Sequence record: NC_047742.1
DNA from: Enterobacteria phage IME_EC2
Length of the DNA stretch: 41,510 nt
Direction: 5' to 3' (one strand)
Below the pieces are notes generated by a model. That model was not told the DNA's origin, did not search any database, and saw only the letters and a program-made list of their open reading frames with translations. Positions 12,947 through 19,296 of the stretch are shown one piece after another (within the stretch, counting starts at the first letter, position 1; the number at the start of each line of letters is the position of its first letter). A program made the translations under genes and the position numbers.

Positions 12947-13387
12947 ATGAAACAATGCGCCATCTGTCACGAATCGAAGCCGCTGGAGGAGTTCCACAGG
13001 AACAAGAGCAAGAAGGACGGGAGGGACTCGCGCTGTCGCCAGTGTAAGAGCGGGCTTTATAAGAGTTACTACCACGGCGATCCAGCCCGAAAGGAGCGGA
13101 TCATCGAAAACGTTAAAACGTACCAGGCCGGACCGGGGCGAGAGAAGGCGAACGCCACAAAGTCCAGCTATCACACAAAACATCCAAAGAAGCGCCGCGC
13201 CCATAATCTGGTTTATAACGCGATACGGCGCGGAGAGCTAACGAGGGGGCCGTGTGAGGTCTGCGGAGCGGAGAAGGTAGTGGGACACCATGACGACTAC
13301 GATCGCCCGTTAGAGGTCCGCTGGCTCTGCGAGAGGCATCATAAAGAGTGGCATCTGGTTAACGGTGAAGCGCTTAACCCAGATTGA
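12947..13387 (+). CDS. HNH endonuclease
   Basis: N-terminal Cys cluster (CAICH...CRQCK) and C-terminal HNH-type motif (VVGHHDDYDRPLEVRWLCERHHKEWH). Confidence 0.8.
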   Translation: MKQCAICHESKPLEEFHRNKSKKDGRDSRCRQCKSGLYKSYYHGDPARKERIIENVKTYQAGPGREKANATKSSYHTKHPKKRRAHNLVYNAIRRGELTRGPCEVCGAEKVVGHHDDYDRPLEVRWLCERHHKEWHLVNGEALNPD

Positions 13388-13444: not shown

Positions 13445-13663
13445 ATGGCAACATTAAAGCCCGTTTGCCTCGTGAAGCAGGTCCGAGAGGCGAAAGGCAT
13501 CCAGCAAAAAGATCTGGCGGAACGCGTAGGCATGATCGCCCACCAGTTGAGCCGATACGAGAACGGGCACGAGTTGCCACATATTACTAACCTCTGCCGA
13601 CTCGCTGCCGCCCTGGACGTGTCGATCGCAGACCTGATCGAGTATGGAGTGAATCATGATTAA
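13445..13663 (+). CDS. XRE-family HTH transcriptional regulator (Cro/CI-like)
   Basis: KGIQQKDLAERVGMIAHQLSRYENG HTH signature; second ATG chosen because AAGGAG lies 6 nt upstream (ORF track start 13430 is an alternative). Confidence 0.75.
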   Translation: MATLKPVCLVKQVREAKGIQQKDLAERVGMIAHQLSRYENGHELPHITNLCRLAAALDVSIADLIEYGVNHD

Positions 13664-13940
13664 GTCCGGCCTTAGCTTTAGCGAAGCTCTGATCGCAGTG
13701 AAGGAAGGTTATAAAATTGCCCGCGCTGGATGGAATGGCGCTAATCAATTCGTGATCAAGGCTGGCGGGTATACCGTAAACGAGCCGCGACCGGGTAGTG
13801 ATTATGCAAAGGCCGGGATCACTGGCGAATTTACGATCGCCCCGCATCTTGATCTTAAAAATGCGCAAGGCGTAATGCAACCGGGTTGGGTCCCATCACA
13901 GGGCGACCTGTTCGCCAATGACTGGACGATCTTACGCTGA
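13656..13940 (+). CDS. DUF2829-like protein (Tad2-type fold candidate)
   Basis: FSEALIAVKEGYKIARAGWNG near N-terminus and C-terminal DLFANDWTIL resemble the DUF2829 pattern; overlaps HTH stop. Confidence 0.5.
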   Translation: MIKSGLSFSEALIAVKEGYKIARAGWNGANQFVIKAGGYTVNEPRPGSDYAKAGITGEFTIAPHLDLKNAQGVMQPGWVPSQGDLFANDWTILR

Positions 13941-13967
13941 TTGTTAACGCGGAATCGAGAGAAGAAG

Positions 13968-13994
13968 AAGGGGCCAATTAAGGCCCCTTTTTTT
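13968..13994. terminator. bidirectional intrinsic terminator (GGGGCC-AATTAA-GGCCCC + T7)
   Basis: Hairpin with T-run on plus side and U-rich on minus side, at convergence of the plus-strand operon and tailspike gene. Confidence 0.7.
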
Positions 13995-16233
13995 ATGCCG
14001 GAGTTCGGAAGGAGATCGGCTTCGTTGCCGCCAGTTGAACGCCCGCCACGGTTGCCGTCACGATAGCGTCCGCAATGTCGATCCTGATCTCTGCGGTCGG
14101 GTTGCTTGGGTTGGTGCTGTACGGTGCGCGAGTGATCACCGTGTTAAGCGGAGCGCCGCCAGCCCCGGCTCCGGGGATCGTGACGCGGGTCCCCTGCGTA
14201 AGCGGGGTCTTATAAAACCAGACCTGATCCGACTTGTTGCCAGCCATCGCGTAATTTTGCGCGAGGTAGGTCTGGCCCGCTGCCGTCGCTTTAATCTGCA
14301 ATTCTGCGACCGCCGGGAGGTATGCGCCGGACGTCTCGACGGCAAAGATCTTGCCATCGTTGCGGACCAGGAGATCGCCCTCCATGAACTCGCGCCCGGT
14401 CGGGAACGCGTTACCATCCCAGATCCCTACGCCGTCCATCTGGTCAGGAGTCGGGATCAGGTAAGTATGGTTAGAGGGCTGCATTTCAGCGCCTACGCCG
14501 CCGTTAGTCCCCGAACGAGGGTACGGACGGGCGAACACGTTCGAATTAACGCAATCAATCTGGCTGTATGCGCAACGGCTCCAGCCCTGATCCGGGTACG
14601 CGCCGAAGTTAACATTATTCATGCGTAACACGGTGCGACCGCCAGCGATATAACCATTCGAAGGCGTCCCGCCGCTGGAATCATCCCCGATCGCGTCGAA
14701 GATATCGCCGGAGATATCGTTTAAATCCAGTTCGGTAGCCACGCCGAAAACGGAGAATTTAGCCACGTTGATGTTACTGAATCGGCAACGGTTGGTTGCT
14801 CCGGCCTTTTCCGTACCCACGCCAGCGTAAAAGCGCCCGGTCTTGGAATAGACGTTCCTCACGGTCATGTCCTGGCAAGGACCACGAGCGCCCACTCCGG
14901 CGTTAGTCCCCCACTCCAGCATAACCACGCGGACGTCGGAGGCCAGGGTCCCGGAGGTCACGATCGGCTCCCCGCGAACGCCATCGATCGACACGCGGCG
15001 CGAGCCATAACAGAGGACCGTCGCCAGCGTCAGGCCGGAGCCGTTAGACACGTTCTGATCCGGGTCGCCGTTGATGTTCTCGATCACGGAGTCGCGGACC
15101 ATTTCGAAGTGAACAAGCTGGCGGACGCCGACGCCCGTCACGTTGCGGATCGTGATGTTCTTCGCAAAGTTCTCGTCAGGCGTGTCGATACCATACGGAG
15201 ATTGACCAGCGACGCCGATCCCGATCCCCCAGTTGGACGGGTTGATCGGAGCCTGTCCGGTGGAGTCGATGTTCTCCAGGTAGATATTTTCGATCACGCA
15301 ACCGTCGTCATAGTGGCGCTGCACCACGTTAAGCTCGATCCCGTCGCCGCCCATGTCGTAAAACGACAAGTTACGATACAGGCCACGCGTGACGAGTTCC
15401 CCGGTCCCCTGCTGCAAGATGCCGTAAAGGCCATTGCGGAACTCGCTCTCCGTGACTTCCACAGTCGCGTTTTTCGGTAGGGCTTGCATCATTACGCTTG
15501 CGACCTTGCTCGTGGTCGGCTTGCCGTCAAACAGGCAATCCCGGATCCTTACGTCGCCGCCCCATACGCGAATACGGGCGTTTTTAATGGTCGCGCCTTT
15601 CAGCGTGGAATTGTCCATGAAAAAGTCCGGCGTACCTTTCCACGTTCCCCCCATGATGAGGATATCCGTCGCGGTCACGTTGCCGTCCAGCGTTCCCTCC
15701 CAGCCAATGGCCCAGACCGCCAGCTTTTGGGCCTGAGCCGTGTCAAACATGGTCTGGATGGCTGCGGACACGCTGGTGAATGGCGCTTTCCCGACGAACT
15801 GAAAAGGAGTGATCCAGCCCTGAATCGACTCTTTCAAAACGCCGTAATTCGTCCCCACGTACTCCCAGCCCGTCGGCGAGGTGAGAAGGTTCCACATCTG
15901 GACCGGATCATATTTGAACAGGTTCCCGAAATAGAATTGCTGGACGTCGTTCGCGTCCATCACCTTCATGGATGATTCGATCTTGGTGATCAGTTTGACT
16001 ACTTGACCGTTCCAGACCGGATAGCCGGAGACGTTGGTCCGTACTGGCTGCGGGATTGGCGTCAGCGTTCCGTCCTCGTCCTCGACAAAGACCTGGGTCT
16101 GGTTCGCTGGGTTCAGCGGGTCGGTATCTTTCACGCCTACGTAGATCTTCCCGTTGACCAGCGCCGCGAAGCGGTCCAGACGTAGGAAAGGCGTCGAAGG
16201 CATACCAATATCAGCGTATACGTCGCGGGCCAT
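13993..16233 (-). CDS. tailspike protein (P22-type N-terminal head-binding domain, distinct beta-helix receptor-binding domain)
   Basis: N-terminus ALVNGKIYVGVKDTDPLNPANQTQVFVEDEDG aligns with P22 gp9 [32 protein letters not shown]; remainder unlike P22; trimmed to ATG (MARDV) with GGAGAA SD. Confidence 0.85.
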   Translation of the reverse strand: MARDVYADIGMPSTPFLRLDRFAALVNGKIYVGVKDTDPLNPANQTQVFVEDEDGTLTPIPQPVRTNVSGYPVWNGQVVKLITKIESSMKVMDANDVQQFYFGNLFKYDPVQMWNLLTSPTGWEYVGTNYGVLKESIQGWITPFQFVGKAPFTSVSAAIQTMFDTAQAQKLAVWAIGWEGTLDGNVTATDILIMGGTWKGTPDFFMDNSTLKGATIKNARIRVWGGDVRIRDCLFDGKPTTSKVASVMMQALPKNATVEVTESEFRNGLYGILQQGTGELVTRGLYRNLSFYDMGGDGIELNVVQRHYDDGCVIENIYLENIDSTGQAPINPSNWGIGIGVAGQSPYGIDTPDENFAKNITIRNVTGVGVRQLVHFEMVRDSVIENINGDPDQNVSNGSGLTLATVLCYGSRRVSIDGVRGEPIVTSGTLASDVRVVMLEWGTNAGVGARGPCQDMTVRNVYSKTGRFYAGVGTEKAGATNRCRFSNINVAKFSVFGVATELDLNDISGDIFDAIGDDSSGGTPSNGYIAGGRTVLRMNNVNFGAYPDQGWSRCAYSQIDCVNSNVFARPYPRSGTNGGVGAEMQPSNHTYLIPTPDQMDGVGIWDGNAFPTGREFMEGDLLVRNDGKIFAVETSGAYLPAVAELQIKATAAGQTYLAQNYAMAGNKSDQVWFYKTPLTQGTRVTIPGAGAGGAPLNTVITRAPYSTNPSNPTAEIRIDIADAIVTATVAGVQLAATKPISFRTPA

Positions 16234-16272
16234 TGTGTTCTCCATGAGAAAGGGGGCTTATCGCCCCCGTTG

Positions 16273-19200
16273 TTATTGTTGCTGCTGGTCGCTTGCTGCC
16301 GCTTGCCCGCCAGTACCGGAAAGGAATCCGACGATCCCGGCGCGGTTAATGGCTGCTTTCTCCTCCGGGGTCATGGCCTCGATCAAGGCTTTCCACTCCG
16401 GCGAGTTTGCCGCCGCTTCCTCGGCCTCTCGGACGAACGTCCGGCCCGCTGGGGTCAGCTTCCCGGAACTCTGCGCGGCTGCGGCTTGTAACAGTTTATT
16501 GAAGTTTTCACCAGAAAGCACGTTGTCCGCAAGAACAGATCGCGGAACACGAGTCGCTCGCCCTGCTGCCTGAGCCGCTGCGAGCGCTGCATTACCCGCC
16601 GGGCCTAACGTGTAGAGCGCTGCGGCATGTTTACCCAGCCAGCCCGCCGCGCCGTATAGCTTCGACATAACGCCACCAGCGCCCGGATCGTCGAATCGCT
16701 TCACGAAGTCGGAGATCGATCCCGTCGTCGTGGTAAAGCGTTTCGCCCGGTCGATCCCGTTCGCCACGCGGTAGATCTGCATGAGGCGCTGGCGCTGCTG
16801 GCGCGGTAGGTGCTGCATGACGTTTCCTAACGTCCCGTTAGCCTGGGCGGTCTTGTACCAGTCCACGAAGCCGGGGATCGCGAAGGTATCGCGGGCGCTA
16901 CGTGCGCCCAGGGTACGCTCCAGCGCGTTAGCCACTACGTCGGACTTGAGGCTGTCCGGGGTTGCGGCCATCAGCTTGTCCCAGTCCCTCGCGCTGCCGC
17001 CCTTCTTGCCCAGGTTCAGGATCGCACTCTGCACTTTCCCGGTGATCGAGTTGTCGAGGTTTTTCCCCAGGACTTCGAGGGCCTGAGTCTCCAGGTCCTT
17101 ACGGCGTTTAACAAGCTGTTTCCCCACATTCCAGTCGTCCGCCGCGCCATACTGGGCCGCGACTCGCTCCTGGTCGTCAGTCAGGCGGGCATAAAGCTGT
17201 TTAAGCTGCGCCGGGACTTCATCCTTAAACGGGCCGTTTTTCTTGTTCAGCGCCTCGCCGACCTGCTTCCGAAGGGTGTCCAGTCGGGCGTAAGTCGGGA
17301 TCGTCGAAACACTCTGATCAGGGAGTCCCGTCACTGGGTCCACCTTCCCAGGCTTCGGAGCCATCCAGTCGAGCGCCTTTTTCTCTGCTGCGGAAAGGTA
17401 CTCGTCCCCGCCTAACTCGTCAGCCTTCGCCGTCAGATAATCCACGGTGCTGTCCGGCCTTACTTCGGCGTTGCGGGGGATCTTGGCGCTCACGGCGTTA
17501 TAAGCCTTTTCCGCCTCGTCGCCCAGGCCGTCGATAATGGCGCGGGTACGGGCGGCAAACGCCTGATCGATGGTCTGCGCGTTCATGCTGGTCATGCTGT
17601 CGATCAGCTCGTCGGCCTTCTCACCTAAGCGAGAGATCCCGTTAATCTGCTGAGTTTCCAGGTTGGAACTTTTCCGGCTTACAAGCTGCTGGAGCGTGGT
17701 CCTAAACTGCGTATCACGCGCATAAGCCGCCGGGGTCAGTTGATCCTCCATCCCCAGATCGCGGGCGGTTTTCATCAGCTTTTTGTCCACGTCCGCCATG
17801 TTCGCGAGGTCGATCATCTCGTCAGAAGCGCGGAGGGTTTCACCGTTCGCGCCCTGTACGGTCTGATCTGGCGTCAGTCGGAACTTGCTCGCATCACGAG
17901 CCACAGCGTCGGAGATTCCCGCCTCGGTCGCCTGGGTGGATCGGGTTGCGTCCGCTGCTGCGTCTGCTGCGCCACCTGCGGCCCCCTCGCCGCCCCTGAG
18001 CGCATTCCACAGCCTACCAGCGCCACCGATAACAGCGCGGCCCACAGCCTCGCCAGCGGGCGCTAGTGCGATATTCGTCAGCGTCTCCTCCGGGTCCCCA
18101 CGACCAGCGGCGATCGCGCCCGGCACAGCACGAGCCGCCGGAGCCGCGATCCAGTTCTGGGTCATATCGGCGAGACGGGTCGCGAAGCTGGTCGCGTCCG
18201 GCGCTTCACGAACCAGTCCGAGGAGTTCGGTCGCCGCCTGAGCCTTACGCGGGCCAGGTAGCGGCGCGAGCATATCGCCGATCAGGGTCCCGATCTGCGC
18301 GTATTTGTCAGTAGGGGCCAGACCAGGGATCCCCCCAGGCGTGATGGTTGGCGCTTGGGTGCTTTCATCCACCAGCCCGACGCCCTTCCCGGCATCGGTC
18401 ACGGCTTGGGAGATCATGTTCGCCAGGGAGATCGGCGTGTTCAGCAGGTCGATCCCCGTCTGAGCCACGCCGCGAGCGCCCTGATCCAGCGAGTGGAGGA
18501 CGGTCTGGCCTAACTTTTCCCAGTTTCGGGCGGCTTCTTCGTTTGGATCGGTTTGTCCGGGCTGATTAGCTCCGCCCTGCTCTCCGTTACCGTTCGGCGC
18601 TGCCGCCCCTTGTGCGCCATCAGATCCCGCTTGATTAAGTGCATTGCCAGCGGAGACGGCTGGGACTTGTTGATCGGCTCCGGTTGCTCCGGCTCCGTCT
18701 GCGGCTGCTGGTGCCTGGTAGTCTCCGAACTGGTCGAAAACATTACCGCCAGCGCTCGGAGATCGTGCGCTGGTTGCGTATTGAGTAGGTTCGCCGCTGC
18801 CATCGCTGCCAGCGCCTCGCCCAGTCCATTGATTAAACCGATCATCCACATATTGACGCCCCTCCGGGCCTGGGGTTGCCTGGCCCGCCAGTTGTTTGTC
18901 TACGTTGCCGGGGCCGTCGTGGTAAGCCTGGAGAGCCGTCCCCCAATCTCCGTAGCGCTGATACATGCGGGAAAGATACTGCGCCCCCGCGTCCGCTTGC
19001 ATTGCCGGATCCTGCGCCAGTTGCGCCGGGTCGTAGCCCATATCGCGGGCCGTTCCCGGCATCACCTGAGTAAGCCCCATTGCGCCCTTGCTGGAGGTCG
19101 CAGTGGGATCGCCGCTGGATTCTTTACCCATTAACTGAGTCATGAGGCCAGCAGGGATCCCCCACTTGGCCCCGGCGCTCTCCACCAGATCAGCATAACC

Positions 19201-19296
19201 TCCGCCAGTGGATCCCGCTTGCTGCGGGATCTGATTTGGGAGCGCTTCCGCACTTTCCGGCATATTCTGATCAAACTGGTCGAAGATGTTCGCCAT
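16273..19296 (-). CDS. internal virion/ejection protein (gp16 position) with N-terminal lytic transglycosylase (SLT) domain
   Basis: SLT motifs GKESSGDP...KGAMGLTQVMP...ALQAYHDGPGNV; 1007 aa, Ala/Gly-rich; last gene before tailspike. Confidence 0.7.
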   Translation of the reverse strand: MANIFDQFDQNMPESAEALPNQIPQQAGSTGGGYADLVESAGAKWGIPAGLMTQLMGKESSGDPTATSSKGAMGLTQVMPGTARDMGYDPAQLAQDPAMQADAGAQYLSRMYQRYGDWGTALQAYHDGPGNVDKQLAGQATPGPEGRQYVDDRFNQWTGRGAGSDGSGEPTQYATSARSPSAGGNVFDQFGDYQAPAAADGAGATGADQQVPAVSAGNALNQAGSDGAQGAAAPNGNGEQGGANQPGQTDPNEEAARNWEKLGQTVLHSLDQGARGVAQTGIDLLNTPISLANMISQAVTDAGKGVGLVDESTQAPTITPGGIPGLAPTDKYAQIGTLIGDMLAPLPGPRKAQAATELLGLVREAPDATSFATRLADMTQNWIAAPAARAVPGAIAAGRGDPEETLTNIALAPAGEAVGRAVIGGAGRLWNALRGGEGAAGGAADAAADATRSTQATEAGISDAVARDASKFRLTPDQTVQGANGETLRASDEMIDLANMADVDKKLMKTARDLGMEDQLTPAAYARDTQFRTTLQQLVSRKSSNLETQQINGISRLGEKADELIDSMTSMNAQTIDQAFAARTRAIIDGLGDEAEKAYNAVSAKIPRNAEVRPDSTVDYLTAKADELGGDEYLSAAEKKALDWMAPKPGKVDPVTGLPDQSVSTIPTYARLDTLRKQVGEALNKKNGPFKDEVPAQLKQLYARLTDDQERVAAQYGAADDWNVGKQLVKRRKDLETQALEVLGKNLDNSITGKVQSAILNLGKKGGSARDWDKLMAATPDSLKSDVVANALERTLGARSARDTFAIPGFVDWYKTAQANGTLGNVMQHLPRQQRQRLMQIYRVANGIDRAKRFTTTTGSISDFVKRFDDPGAGGVMSKLYGAAGWLGKHAAALYTLGPAGNAALAAAQAAGRATRVPRSVLADNVLSGENFNKLLQAAAAQSSGKLTPAGRTFVREAEEAAANSPEWKALIEAMTPEEKAAINRAGIVGFLSGTGGQAAASDQQQQ

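What the first reader, a model, noticed from the sequence alone, without database searches (positions are those of the whole stretch)
13993..16233. Mosaic tailspike: P22-type head-binding domain joined to an unrelated beta-helix receptor-binding domain
The first ~110 aa align with the P22 gp9 head-binding domain, but the rest is unlike P22 and has features of a pectate-lyase-like beta helix (repetitive Gly/Asn/Val-rich strands). This indicates domain swapping that sets receptor (probably polysaccharide) specificity.
Basis: partly seen in the sequence, partly recalled or inferred. Interest (0 to 1): 0.4.

Follow-up and report, generated by a model that had tools for sequence, protein, structure and literature searches.

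The report
P22-anchored colanic-acid-degrading phage tailspike
This gene encodes the tailspike of a P22-like E. coli phage: a P22-type tail-attachment domain fused to a beta-helix enzyme of the known phage family that degrades colanic acid slime, an ordinary and already catalogued example of module shuffling.

Summary
Window 13993-16233, on the minus strand, is one 746-aa ORF. Residues 1-116 are a P22-type head-binding domain (Pfam PF09008, E 4e-34; 48.5% identical to P22 gp9). The rest has no significant similarity to P22 gp9.

The C-terminal 630 aa belong to the phage colanidase family:
- PHROG 6117 "colanic acid degradation", E 2e-247.
- Phi92 gp150 (PDB 6E0V): sequence E 6e-68; Foldseek E 2e-40, TM 0.84.
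- 46% identity to the NST1 colanic acid-degrading enzyme.

The window is about 98% identical in DNA to Escherichia phage sortsyn (Murrayvirus). Its tailspike is 99.5% identical to sortsyn_2, which GenBank labels "hypothetical protein". Relatives carry the label "tailspike colanidase".

The same catalytic module sits behind at least four other N-terminal anchors, in T7-like phages, large myoviruses and others. A second, finer mosaic lies inside the beta-helix. Residues 1-215 follow Murrayvirus relatives, and about 216-676 follow the C130_2/Lidtsur type (max chi-square, 0 of 1000 permutations).

This is textbook tailspike modularity in an already deposited phage, so interest is low.

The parts
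13993..16233 (-). Tailspike CDS, 746 aa plus stop codon. An alternative in-frame ATG at 16245 would add 4 aa.
   Evidence: ORF list. GGAG at 16243-16240 lies 6 nt before the ATG at 16233. 99.5% identical in protein to sortsyn_2, QHR72867.1.
15886..16233 (-). aa 1-116: P22-type head-binding (tail-hub attachment) domain.
   Evidence: Pfam PF09008, E 4e-34. PDB sequence hits to Sf6 gp14, P22 gp9 and HK620 N-domains. Foldseek hit 1lkt_A: TM 0.89, rmsd 1.0 A, 47% identity. tblastn finds it in 178 phage records, mostly P22-like.
15814..15885 (-). aa 117-140: flexible linker or neck between the anchor and the enzymatic body. This is the older module junction; homology to tailspikes with other anchors begins here.
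   Evidence: pLDDT below 50 for aa 118-138. BLASTP homology to Lidtsur and NST1 (T7-type anchor) starts at aa 117. tblastn hits to Bonnellvirus tailspikes start at aa 121-126 of the 750-aa reading.
14524..15813 (-). aa 141-570: N-terminal cap helix (aa 155-168) and right-handed parallel beta-helix body of the colanidase. It includes the family-invariant core, G-D297-G-I-E300-L-N302-V-V and N-W-G-I-G-I-G (aa 334-340), plus Q372/H375/E377.
   Evidence: PHROG 6117, E 2e-247. Phi92 gp150 (6e0v): phmmer E 6e-68; Foldseek E 2e-40, TMt 0.84. Invariant columns across 41 homologues and across NST1 and gp150. Sub-threshold WcaM match at aa 212-419, E 1e-20.
13996..14523 (-). aa 571-746: C-terminal part of the colanidase module, rich in Ala/Gly/Thr/Pro with mixed strands. 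It aligns with the C-terminal end of the Phi92 gp150 crystal structure.
   Evidence: The phmmer alignment to 6e0v runs to query aa 748 of 750 and chain residue 622 of 626. Model pLDDT is mostly 86-97. Composition.
15334..15591 (-). aa 215-300: zone of the intragenic recombination joint. Upstream the protein follows Murrayvirus relatives (ST231, KMB41). Downstream it follows the C130_2 (Hungariovirus) and Lidtsur (Bonnellvirus) type.
   Evidence: Sliding identity. Per-segment identity in alignment A1. Max chi-square breakpoint at aa 215/216: 88:3 against 39:108 informative sites, 0 of 1000 permutations. DNA homology to Lumpael and IME279 ends at about aa 187-192.
16252..16268 (-). GC-rich hairpin followed by TTT, between the upstream ejection-protein gene and the tailspike start. 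Terminator-like, and conserved in all relatives.
   Evidence: Terminator scan. Sequence. Hairpin present, with different stem and loop sequences, in sortsyn, ST231, KMB41, Lumpael, IME279, Skarpretter and C130_2.
13968..13989 (.). Hairpin with an A-run on one side and a T-run on the other, immediately after the tailspike stop codon. It is a likely bidirectional terminator shared by the convergent late (-) and early (+) transcription units.
   Evidence: Terminator scan. Sequence. Conserved in all relatives. A 27-nt exact inverted match in Lumpael.

Best explanation
The gene encodes the single tailspike of a lytic P22-like podovirus of the genus Murrayvirus, nearly identical to Escherichia phage sortsyn. 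By analogy with P22 and Sf6, the N-terminal 116 residues form the trimeric head-binding dome. That dome docks the spike on the tail hub built from gp4- and gp10-like proteins, which are encoded in the same window.

A flexible linker follows. The remaining ~600 residues form a right-handed parallel beta-helix enzyme of the phage colanidase family. This enzyme binds colanic acid, the Rcs-regulated exopolysaccharide of E. coli and other Enterobacteriaceae, and cuts its backbone. The virion can thereby adsorb to the slime layer and work through it towards the outer membrane. There the needle (gp26-like, with an Sf6-type knob) and the ejection proteins take over.

Shown here: domain composition, homology, predicted fold, genomic context and mosaic history.
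Inferred: trimeric state, enzymatic activity, colanic acid as substrate, and a catalytic role for the invariant acidic residues D297, E300 and E377.
For: Domain composition:
- Head_binding, E 4e-34.
- PHROG 6117 "colanic acid degradation", E 2e-247, covering profile positions 57-709 of 711.
- PDB 6e0v, titled "colanidase tailspike protein gp150 of Phage Phi92": phmmer E 6e-68 over aa 118-748; Foldseek E 2e-40, TMt 0.84, using an AF2 model of pLDDT 86.

Bracketing by characterised enzymes: the query is 46% identical to the NST1 colanic acid-degrading protein (HM214492) and 32% to Phi92 gp150. NST1 and gp150 are only 30% identical to each other.
- NST1 is described as a well-characterised colanidase (Firozi et al. 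2010, as cited in PMC4179555).
- gp150 is reported to hydrolyse the beta-1,4 Glc-Fuc linkage of colanic acid (PMC13450770, citing Xu et al. 2025).

Other support:
- Polar residues are invariant across 41 homologues and in both characterised enzymes.
- The closest phage was isolated on E. coli K-12 MG1655. From general knowledge, that strain has no O-antigen or K capsule, which leaves colanic acid as its main exopolysaccharide.
- P22-type docking partners are present in the window: gp4 (PF11650), gp10 (PF11134), needle with Sf6-type knob (PF16532), gp7 and portal.
- The gene sits last in the late operon, directly after the ejection-protein genes.
- Relatives are annotated "tailspike colanidase", with Head_binding and wcaM superfamily notes.
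Against: No experiment exists for this protein or for any Murrayvirus tailspike.

Identity to the characterised enzymes is only 32-46%. Beta-helix depolymerases can change substrate at such distances.

The catalytic residues of the family are not, to my knowledge, experimentally defined.

From general knowledge, wild-type K-12 makes little colanic acid at 37 C. The tailspike's contribution to infecting the isolation host is therefore unclear.

The local Pfam copy has no model for the C-domain. PF27800 appears only in the precomputed annotations of homologues.
Confidence: 0.85

Rival explanations
1. The beta-helix domain is a depolymerase or binder for a different surface glycan (an O-antigen, a K capsule, enterobacterial common antigen or another exopolysaccharide). 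On this view the colanidase family label is carried over wrongly by homology.
For: Only 32-46% identity to the characterised enzymes. Within the family, tailspikes of phages from Klebsiella, Kosakonia, Salmonella, Cronobacter and even Stutzerimonas diverge to 27-55%. Segments aa 461-680 are the least conserved and could form a different binding groove. KMB41, with a 68% identical spike, infected only 5% of tested UPEC strains, which is narrower than expected for a receptor as widespread as colanic acid.
Against: The two biochemically characterised members are more distant from each other (30%) than either is from this protein, and both act on colanic acid. The isolation host, K-12 MG1655, lacks O-antigen and K capsule (general knowledge). 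The family-invariant core is intact. The domain is homologous to WcaM of the colanic acid operon.
Confidence: 0.1
2. The protein is a non-catalytic adhesin. It keeps the colanidase fold and binds the polysaccharide but no longer cleaves it.
For: No activity data exist. Catalytically inactive tailspikes are known in other phage groups (general knowledge).
Against: Every invariant polar or acidic position of the family is retained: Q275, D297, E300, N302, Q372, H375, E377, N460, N565. The most conserved block, aa 286-345, is 80-93% identical to the C130_2 and Lidtsur spikes.
Confidence: 0.04
3. It is a full-length orthologue of the P22 gp9 endorhamnosidase that has diverged beyond recognition, rather than a mosaic.
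For: Both proteins have an N-terminal head-binding domain followed by a right-handed beta-helix. Foldseek lists full-length P22 and Sf6 tailspikes with E 1e-13 to 1e-16.
Against: Those structural hits have TM scores of only 0.2-0.3 and rest on the N-domain. The C-parts show no sequence similarity (best E 0.035). The same C-part is 46-63% identical to spikes of T7-like phages that lack the P22 domain entirely. The N- and C-parts occur in largely separate sets of phage records.
Confidence: 0.01

Closest known systems
Escherichia phage sortsyn gene sortsyn_2 (QHR72867.1, MN850623; Murrayvirus EC2)
   Same: 99.5% identical protein, with 5 substitutions in 746 aa. Same neighbours and same flanking hairpins. 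Surrounding DNA is 94-98% identical.
   Different: GenBank labels it only "hypothetical protein". The five differences are T426Q, V684I, P695A, A727G and A746V.
"Tailspike colanidase" of other P22-like podoviruses: Murrayvirus ST231, KMB41 and Lumpael; Sortsnevirus Sortsne and IME279; Skarpretter; C130_2
   Same: Same two-module architecture (PF09008 plus the colanidase domain PF27800). Same position, after the SLT-domain ejection protein and convergent with the early genes.
   Different: Overall identity is only 37-68%, and the pattern is segmental. ST231 and KMB41 are 90-97% identical in aa 1-165 but 37-62% in aa 300-480. C130_2 shows the reverse pattern.
Phage NST1 colanic acid-degrading enzyme and the Bonnellvirus (J8-65, Lidtsur) tailspike colanidases
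   Same: Homologous over the whole enzymatic body, aa 117-746 (46% to NST1, 63% to Lidtsur). The family-invariant residues are shared. Experimental link to colanic acid degradation.
   Different: Their N-terminal ~160 aa are a T7-type tail-fibre anchor (PF03906) instead of the P22 head-binding domain.
Phage Phi92 gp150 colanidase tailspike (PDB 6E0V)
   Same: Same fold for aa 118-746 (Foldseek E 2e-40, TMt 0.84) and 32% sequence identity. Reported as a colanic acid hydrolase.
   Different: It belongs to a large myovirus with a multivalent baseplate, and it has a different ~200-aa N-terminal anchor.
P22 gp9, Sf6 gp14 and HK620 tailspikes
   Same: Homologous head-binding domain (47-55% identity; TM up to 0.89). 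Same overall plan of anchor, linker and beta-helix. Same virion partners.
   Different: Their receptor-binding domains are O-antigen endoglycosidases with no detectable sequence similarity to this one.
Bacterial WcaM (last gene product of the colanic acid wca operon)
   Same: Significant local homology: aa 212-419 against WcaM 108-308, E 1e-20. Several phage records are even annotated as WcaM.
   Different: The score of 73.6 bits is far below the equivalog cut-off of 808. WcaM is a 464-aa protein with no virion anchor. This protein is a homologue of WcaM, not a WcaM.

Membership tests
P22-like tailspikes (Pfam PF09008 Head_binding N-domain) | N-terminal ~110-aa head-binding domain, detectable by sequence | tested here: met
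   PF09008: E 4e-34, 117.7 bits against a cut-off of 24, profile positions 10-112 of 113. 48.5% identical to P22 gp9 residues 13-113.
P22-like tailspikes (Pfam PF09008 Head_binding N-domain) | Head-binding domain fold | tested here: met
   The AF2 model superposes on 1lkt_A with TM 0.89 and rmsd 1.0 A, and on Sf6 7sg7_A with TM 0.76.
P22-like tailspikes (Pfam PF09008 Head_binding N-domain) | Encoded in a P22-type virion module that supplies the docking site (gp4, gp10, gp26, portal) | tested here: met
   PF11650 P22_Tail-4, PF11134 Phage_stabilise (gp10), PF16532 needle knob, PF25688 gp7 and PF16510 portal all match ORFs of the same strand block.
P22-like tailspikes (Pfam PF09008 Head_binding N-domain) | Homotrimer; six trimers per virion | not testable with these tools
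   Only a monomer was predicted. The trimeric state is inferred from P22, Sf6 and gp150 structures.
Phage colanidase / colanic acid depolymerase family (PHROG 6117, PF27800, Phi92 gp150, NST1 enzyme) | Full-length sequence homology of the enzymatic body | tested here: met
   PHROG 6117, E 2e-247. gp150, E 6e-68 over aa 118-748. NST1, 46% over aa 117-742. Homologues carry precomputed PF27800.
Phage colanidase / colanic acid depolymerase family (PHROG 6117, PF27800, Phi92 gp150, NST1 enzyme) | Right-handed parallel beta-helix fold matching 6E0V | tested here: met
   Foldseek: E 2.1e-40, TMt 0.84, 645 aligned columns. Model pLDDT 86.
Phage colanidase / colanic acid depolymerase family (PHROG 6117, PF27800, Phi92 gp150, NST1 enzyme) | Family-invariant polar and acidic residues retained (candidate active site) | tested here: met
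   Q275, D297, E300, N302, Q372, H375, E377, N460 and N565 are invariant in 41 sequences. They are also present in NST1 and gp150. Their catalytic role is inferred, not demonstrated.
Phage colanidase / colanic acid depolymerase family (PHROG 6117, PF27800, Phi92 gp150, NST1 enzyme) | Cleaves colanic acid | not testable with these tools
   This requires an enzyme assay. It is inferred from NST1, J8-65 and gp150.
WcaM (NCBIfam NF007517 / TIGR04004 equivalog) | Score above the equivalog cut-off over the full 464-position profile | tested here: not met
   73.6 bits against a cut-off of 808. Only profile positions 108-308 match.
Pectate lyase / generic Beta_helix Pfam families | Sequence match to a pectate-lyase or Beta_helix profile | tested here: not met
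   At E <= 1 the only Pfam hit is Head_binding. The resemblance is at the level of fold class (for example AlgE4 2pyg, TMt 0.56). One distant bacterial homologue carries PF13229.

The most novel reading that the evidence does not exclude
Besides the old anchor/enzyme junction at aa ~117-140, this tailspike carries a recent recombination joint inside the beta-helix, at aa ~215-300. This joint lies at or just before the invariant GDGIELNVV catalytic core. On this reading, P22-like podoviruses (Murrayvirus, Hungariovirus) and T7-like Bonnellvirus phages exchange the distal, substrate-contacting two thirds of the colanidase, using the conserved core as a homology anchor. That exchange could tune the enzyme to chemically different colanic acids (acetylation or pyruvylation variants of different Enterobacteriaceae), or to a different glycan.
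Probability: 0.3. Interest if true: 0.3.

Novelty: already known. Interest (0 to 1): 0.14.

Why it matters
The result corrects a "hypothetical protein" label on a deposited phage, sortsyn_2. It names the likely primary receptor of Murrayvirus phages as colanic acid.

It is also a clean, quantifiable teaching example of receptor-binding-protein modularity. One enzymatic module sits behind at least five different virion anchors, and there is an extra joint inside the enzyme. Such maps are useful for engineering chimeric tailspikes and for choosing depolymerases against mucoid or biofilm-forming Enterobacteriaceae.

It opens no new biological question.

Tried and rejected
- The local Pfam copy gives no family for the C-terminal 630 aa. 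The relevant model, PF27800, appears only in the precomputed annotations of homologues. PHROGs, PDB and NCBIfam were used instead.
- Full-length orthology to P22 gp9 was tested and rejected.
- Membership in WcaM was tested and rejected: 73.6 bits against a cut-off of 808.
- I tried to fetch the Murrayvirus type phage IME_EC2 (NC_047742, KF591601) to see whether its spike differs from sortsyn's. It is not in the collection.
- I tried to read Firozi et al. 2010 (PMC3465957) for the NST1 enzymology. It is not held, so that work is cited only through PMC4179555.
- I could not place D297, E300 and E377 on the 3D model, because model coordinates are not exposed to the scripting tool.
- The first ATG (16245) was considered as the start and judged less likely than 16233. 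Its ATGGAG doubles as the Shine-Dalgarno for the second ATG. The intervening residues are not conserved among relatives (MENT, MEIQ, MEIT, MERI).
- The promoter scan around the gene gave no more sites than shuffled controls.
Full report
**What is at the coordinates**

Window 13993-16245 holds one long ORF on the minus strand. Two in-frame ATGs are available, at 16245 and 16233. The second is preceded by GGAG at 16243-16240 with a 6-nt spacer. It corresponds to the annotated start in phage sortsyn and in IME279. The four residues between the two ATGs are not conserved among relatives. All residue numbers below refer to the 746-aa protein unless stated otherwise.

**Identity of the window**

The 20 kb around the gene match Escherichia phage sortsyn (MN850623, genus Murrayvirus, isolated on E. 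coli K-12 MG1655 from Danish wastewater) at 98% DNA identity where the record is contiguous. The tailspike is 99.5% identical to sortsyn_2, with five substitutions. GenBank labels that protein "hypothetical protein".

Other Murrayvirus genomes (ST231, KMB41, Lumpael) are 84-86% identical in the flanks. The genus is described in the literature as podoviruses of about 42 kb with more than 59% GC (PMC7552041; PMC11162368). The window's composition agrees with that description.

**N-terminal module**

- Pfam Head_binding (PF09008) matches with E 4e-34 over 103 of its 113 positions.
- PDB sequence hits to Sf6 gp14, P22 gp9 and HK620 cover only aa ~12-117.
- BLASTP against P22 gp9 gives 48.5% identity for aa 12-112 against 13-113.
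- The AlphaFold2 model was built from a 41-sequence alignment and has mean pLDDT 86 and pTM 0.73. It superposes on the P22 head-binding crystal structure 1lkt_A with TM 0.89 and rmsd 1.0 A.
- The proteins this domain docks on in P22 and Sf6 are encoded on the same strand upstream: gp4-like, gp10-like, a needle with an Sf6-type knob, gp7-like, an SLT-domain ejection protein and a P22-type portal.

**C-terminal module**

Against the P22 gp9 body there is no similarity: best BLASTP E is 0.035 over 52 residues. Instead the module matches the colanidase family:
- PHROG 6117 "colanic acid degradation", E 2e-247, nearly end to end.
- Phi92 gp150: phmmer E 6e-68 for aa 118-748 of the 750-aa reading.
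- Foldseek's best hit for the model is 6e0v_A, "colanidase tailspike protein gp150 of Phage Phi92": E 2e-40, TM 0.84 normalised on the target, 645 columns.

The model shows a cap helix (aa 155-168) followed by short strands from aa ~172 to ~570. This is the signature of a right-handed parallel beta-helix. A further well-predicted region runs to the C-terminus.

"Pectate-lyase-like" is right for the fold class only. No pectate-lyase or Beta_helix Pfam profile matches.

**Substrate inference**

Two members of the family have experimental support.
- The NST1 enzyme is described as a well-characterised colanidase (Firozi et al. 2010, cited in PMC4179555). Phage J8-65, whose spike is 87% identical to it, makes expanding halos on mucoid E. 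coli and lowers high-molecular-weight colanic acid (PMC4179555).
- Phi92 gp150 is reported to hydrolyse the beta-1,4 glucose-fucose linkage of colanic acid (PMC13450770, citing Xu et al. 2025).

NST1 and gp150 are 30% identical to each other. The window protein is 46% identical to NST1 and 32% to gp150, so it lies inside the span over which the substrate is known to be conserved.

A set of polar residues is invariant in 41 homologues and in both characterised enzymes: Q275, D297, E300, N302, Q372, H375, E377, N460 and N565. The block around D297/E300 (GGDGIELNVV) and the NWGIGIG motif are the best conserved parts. I propose D297, E300 and E377 as catalytic candidates. This is inference only.

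The module is also a distant homologue of WcaM from the host's own colanic acid operon: E 1e-20 but 73.6 bits against an equivalog cut-off of 808. It is related to WcaM but is not a WcaM. The "colanic acid biosynthesis protein" label on ST231 is therefore a mis-transfer.

**Evidence for module shuffling**

tblastn with the two halves separately shows largely separate distributions.
- The N-domain is in 178 phage records. These are mostly P22-like phages of Salmonella, Escherichia and Shigella, plus APSE and Sodalis phages.
- The C-domain is in 253 records. These are dominated by T7-like Bonnellvirus, Phapecoctavirus, Justusliebigvirus, jumbo 121Q-like phages and others.

In the large protein database the colanidase domain (PF27800) is found behind several anchors: PF09008 (P22 anchor), PF03906 (T7 tail-fibre anchor), PF18668 with or without PF26208 (myovirus spike N-domains), PF08400, and with no phage anchor in a bacterial chromosome.

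Homology to spikes with other anchors begins at aa ~117. This coincides with the low-confidence linker at aa 118-138 and marks the older junction.

**A second, finer mosaic**

Per-segment identities are incongruent.
- Murrayvirus spikes ST231 and KMB41 are 90-97% identical over aa 1-165 and about 80% up to aa 300. They fall to 37-62% over aa 300-480.
- C130_2 (Hungariovirus, a P22-type-anchored spike) is 37-57% identical over aa 1-120 but 77-93% over aa 286-465.
- Lidtsur (a T7-like phage) behaves like C130_2 from aa ~225 onward.

A max chi-square scan of informative sites (query matching ST231 only against C130_2 only) places the break at aa 215/216. The counts are 88:3 on the left and 39:108 on the right, with 0 of 1000 permutations reaching the observed value. 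A weaker second break lies near aa 676-682, reached by 2 of 1000 permutations.

DNA homology to Lumpael and IME279 also stops at about aa 187-192. So in this phage group the recent exchange boundary lies inside the first turns of the beta-helix, not at the hinge. DNA identity to C130_2 and Lidtsur in the shared segment is only about 66-83%. Those phages are therefore not the direct donors.

**Gene boundaries**

GC-rich hairpins bracket the gene. One lies at 16252-16268, just before the ribosome-binding site. The other lies at 13968-13989, just after the stop codon, with an A-run on one side and a T-run on the other. Both are present, with differing stems and loops, in all seven relatives examined.

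They are most simply read as transcription terminators, the downstream one serving the convergent late and early units. Whether they also favour cassette exchange is speculation.

**Mechanism proposed**

Trimers of the protein attach by the head-binding dome to the gp4/gp10 hub. The beta-helix bodies bind and hydrolyse colanic acid, letting the virion reach the outer membrane. The needle and ejection proteins then complete infection.

- Shown: composition, homology, predicted fold, context and mosaic history.
- Inferred: oligomeric state, activity, substrate and catalytic residues.

I put 0.85 on this explanation. The main rival is another glycan as substrate, at about 0.1.

**Verdict**

It is not new. 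The protein is already in GenBank at 99.5% identity. The same two-module architecture is explicitly annotated in relatives, for example Skarpretter: [quoted passage not shown]. Tailspike module exchange among P22-like phages is textbook knowledge.

The only increments are a functional name for a "hypothetical protein" and the documented intragenic joint. Interest is low.

Noticed in passing
window 13656-13940 (+): A 94-aa ORF convergent with the tailspike gene matches Pfam PF11195, Tad2-like (Thoeris anti-defence 2), with E 2e-22. It is sortsyn_3, labelled "hypothetical protein" in GenBank. Window 13665-13967 has no counterpart in ST231 or KMB41.
   Followed up: partly
window 13656-13967; L004 5927-6166; L003 5961-6158; L002 and L006 (empty slot): The slot between the XRE-type HTH gene and the 3' end of the tailspike gene is a small variable hotspot. 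It holds a Tad2-like gene here, an Acb2/Tad1-hairpin protein (PF24729, E 7e-15) in IME279, and a crAss001_48-related protein in Lumpael. ST231 and KMB41 have nothing there. It looks like an anti-defence gene slot next to the host-range cassette.
   Followed up: partly
window 16273-19296 (-): The 1007-aa gene directly upstream of the tailspike has an N-terminal SLT lytic transglycosylase domain (E 6e-23) and long Ala/Gly/Gln-rich low-complexity stretches. It is an ejection protein with a built-in cell-wall hydrolase. Against sortsyn, a ~260-nt segment (window 17298-17558) does not align.
   Followed up: no
window 12947-13387 (+): A 146-aa Cys/His-rich ORF (CAICH...CRQCK...HHDDYD...HH) has no Pfam hit at E <= 0.001. 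It is conserved in sortsyn, ST231, KMB41 and IME279, and is annotated "endonuclease" only in KMB41. It is probably an HNH-type nuclease.
   Followed up: no
whole window: GC content is 53-64% throughout, well above the ~51% of E. coli (general knowledge). The literature notes this for Murrayvirus, Sortsnevirus and Skarprettervirus. The tailspike family reaches Kosakonia, Klebsiella and even a Stutzerimonas phage (55% identical full-length spike). This suggests the lineage circulates in hosts of higher GC than E. coli.
   Followed up: no
L002 3501-5723 (Phage ST231) and other records: Several database records label this tailspike family "colanic acid biosynthesis protein WcaM". The NCBIfam WcaM equivalog score is 73.6 bits against a cut-off of 808. 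These are annotation errors that arise from a real but distant homology.
   Followed up: yes
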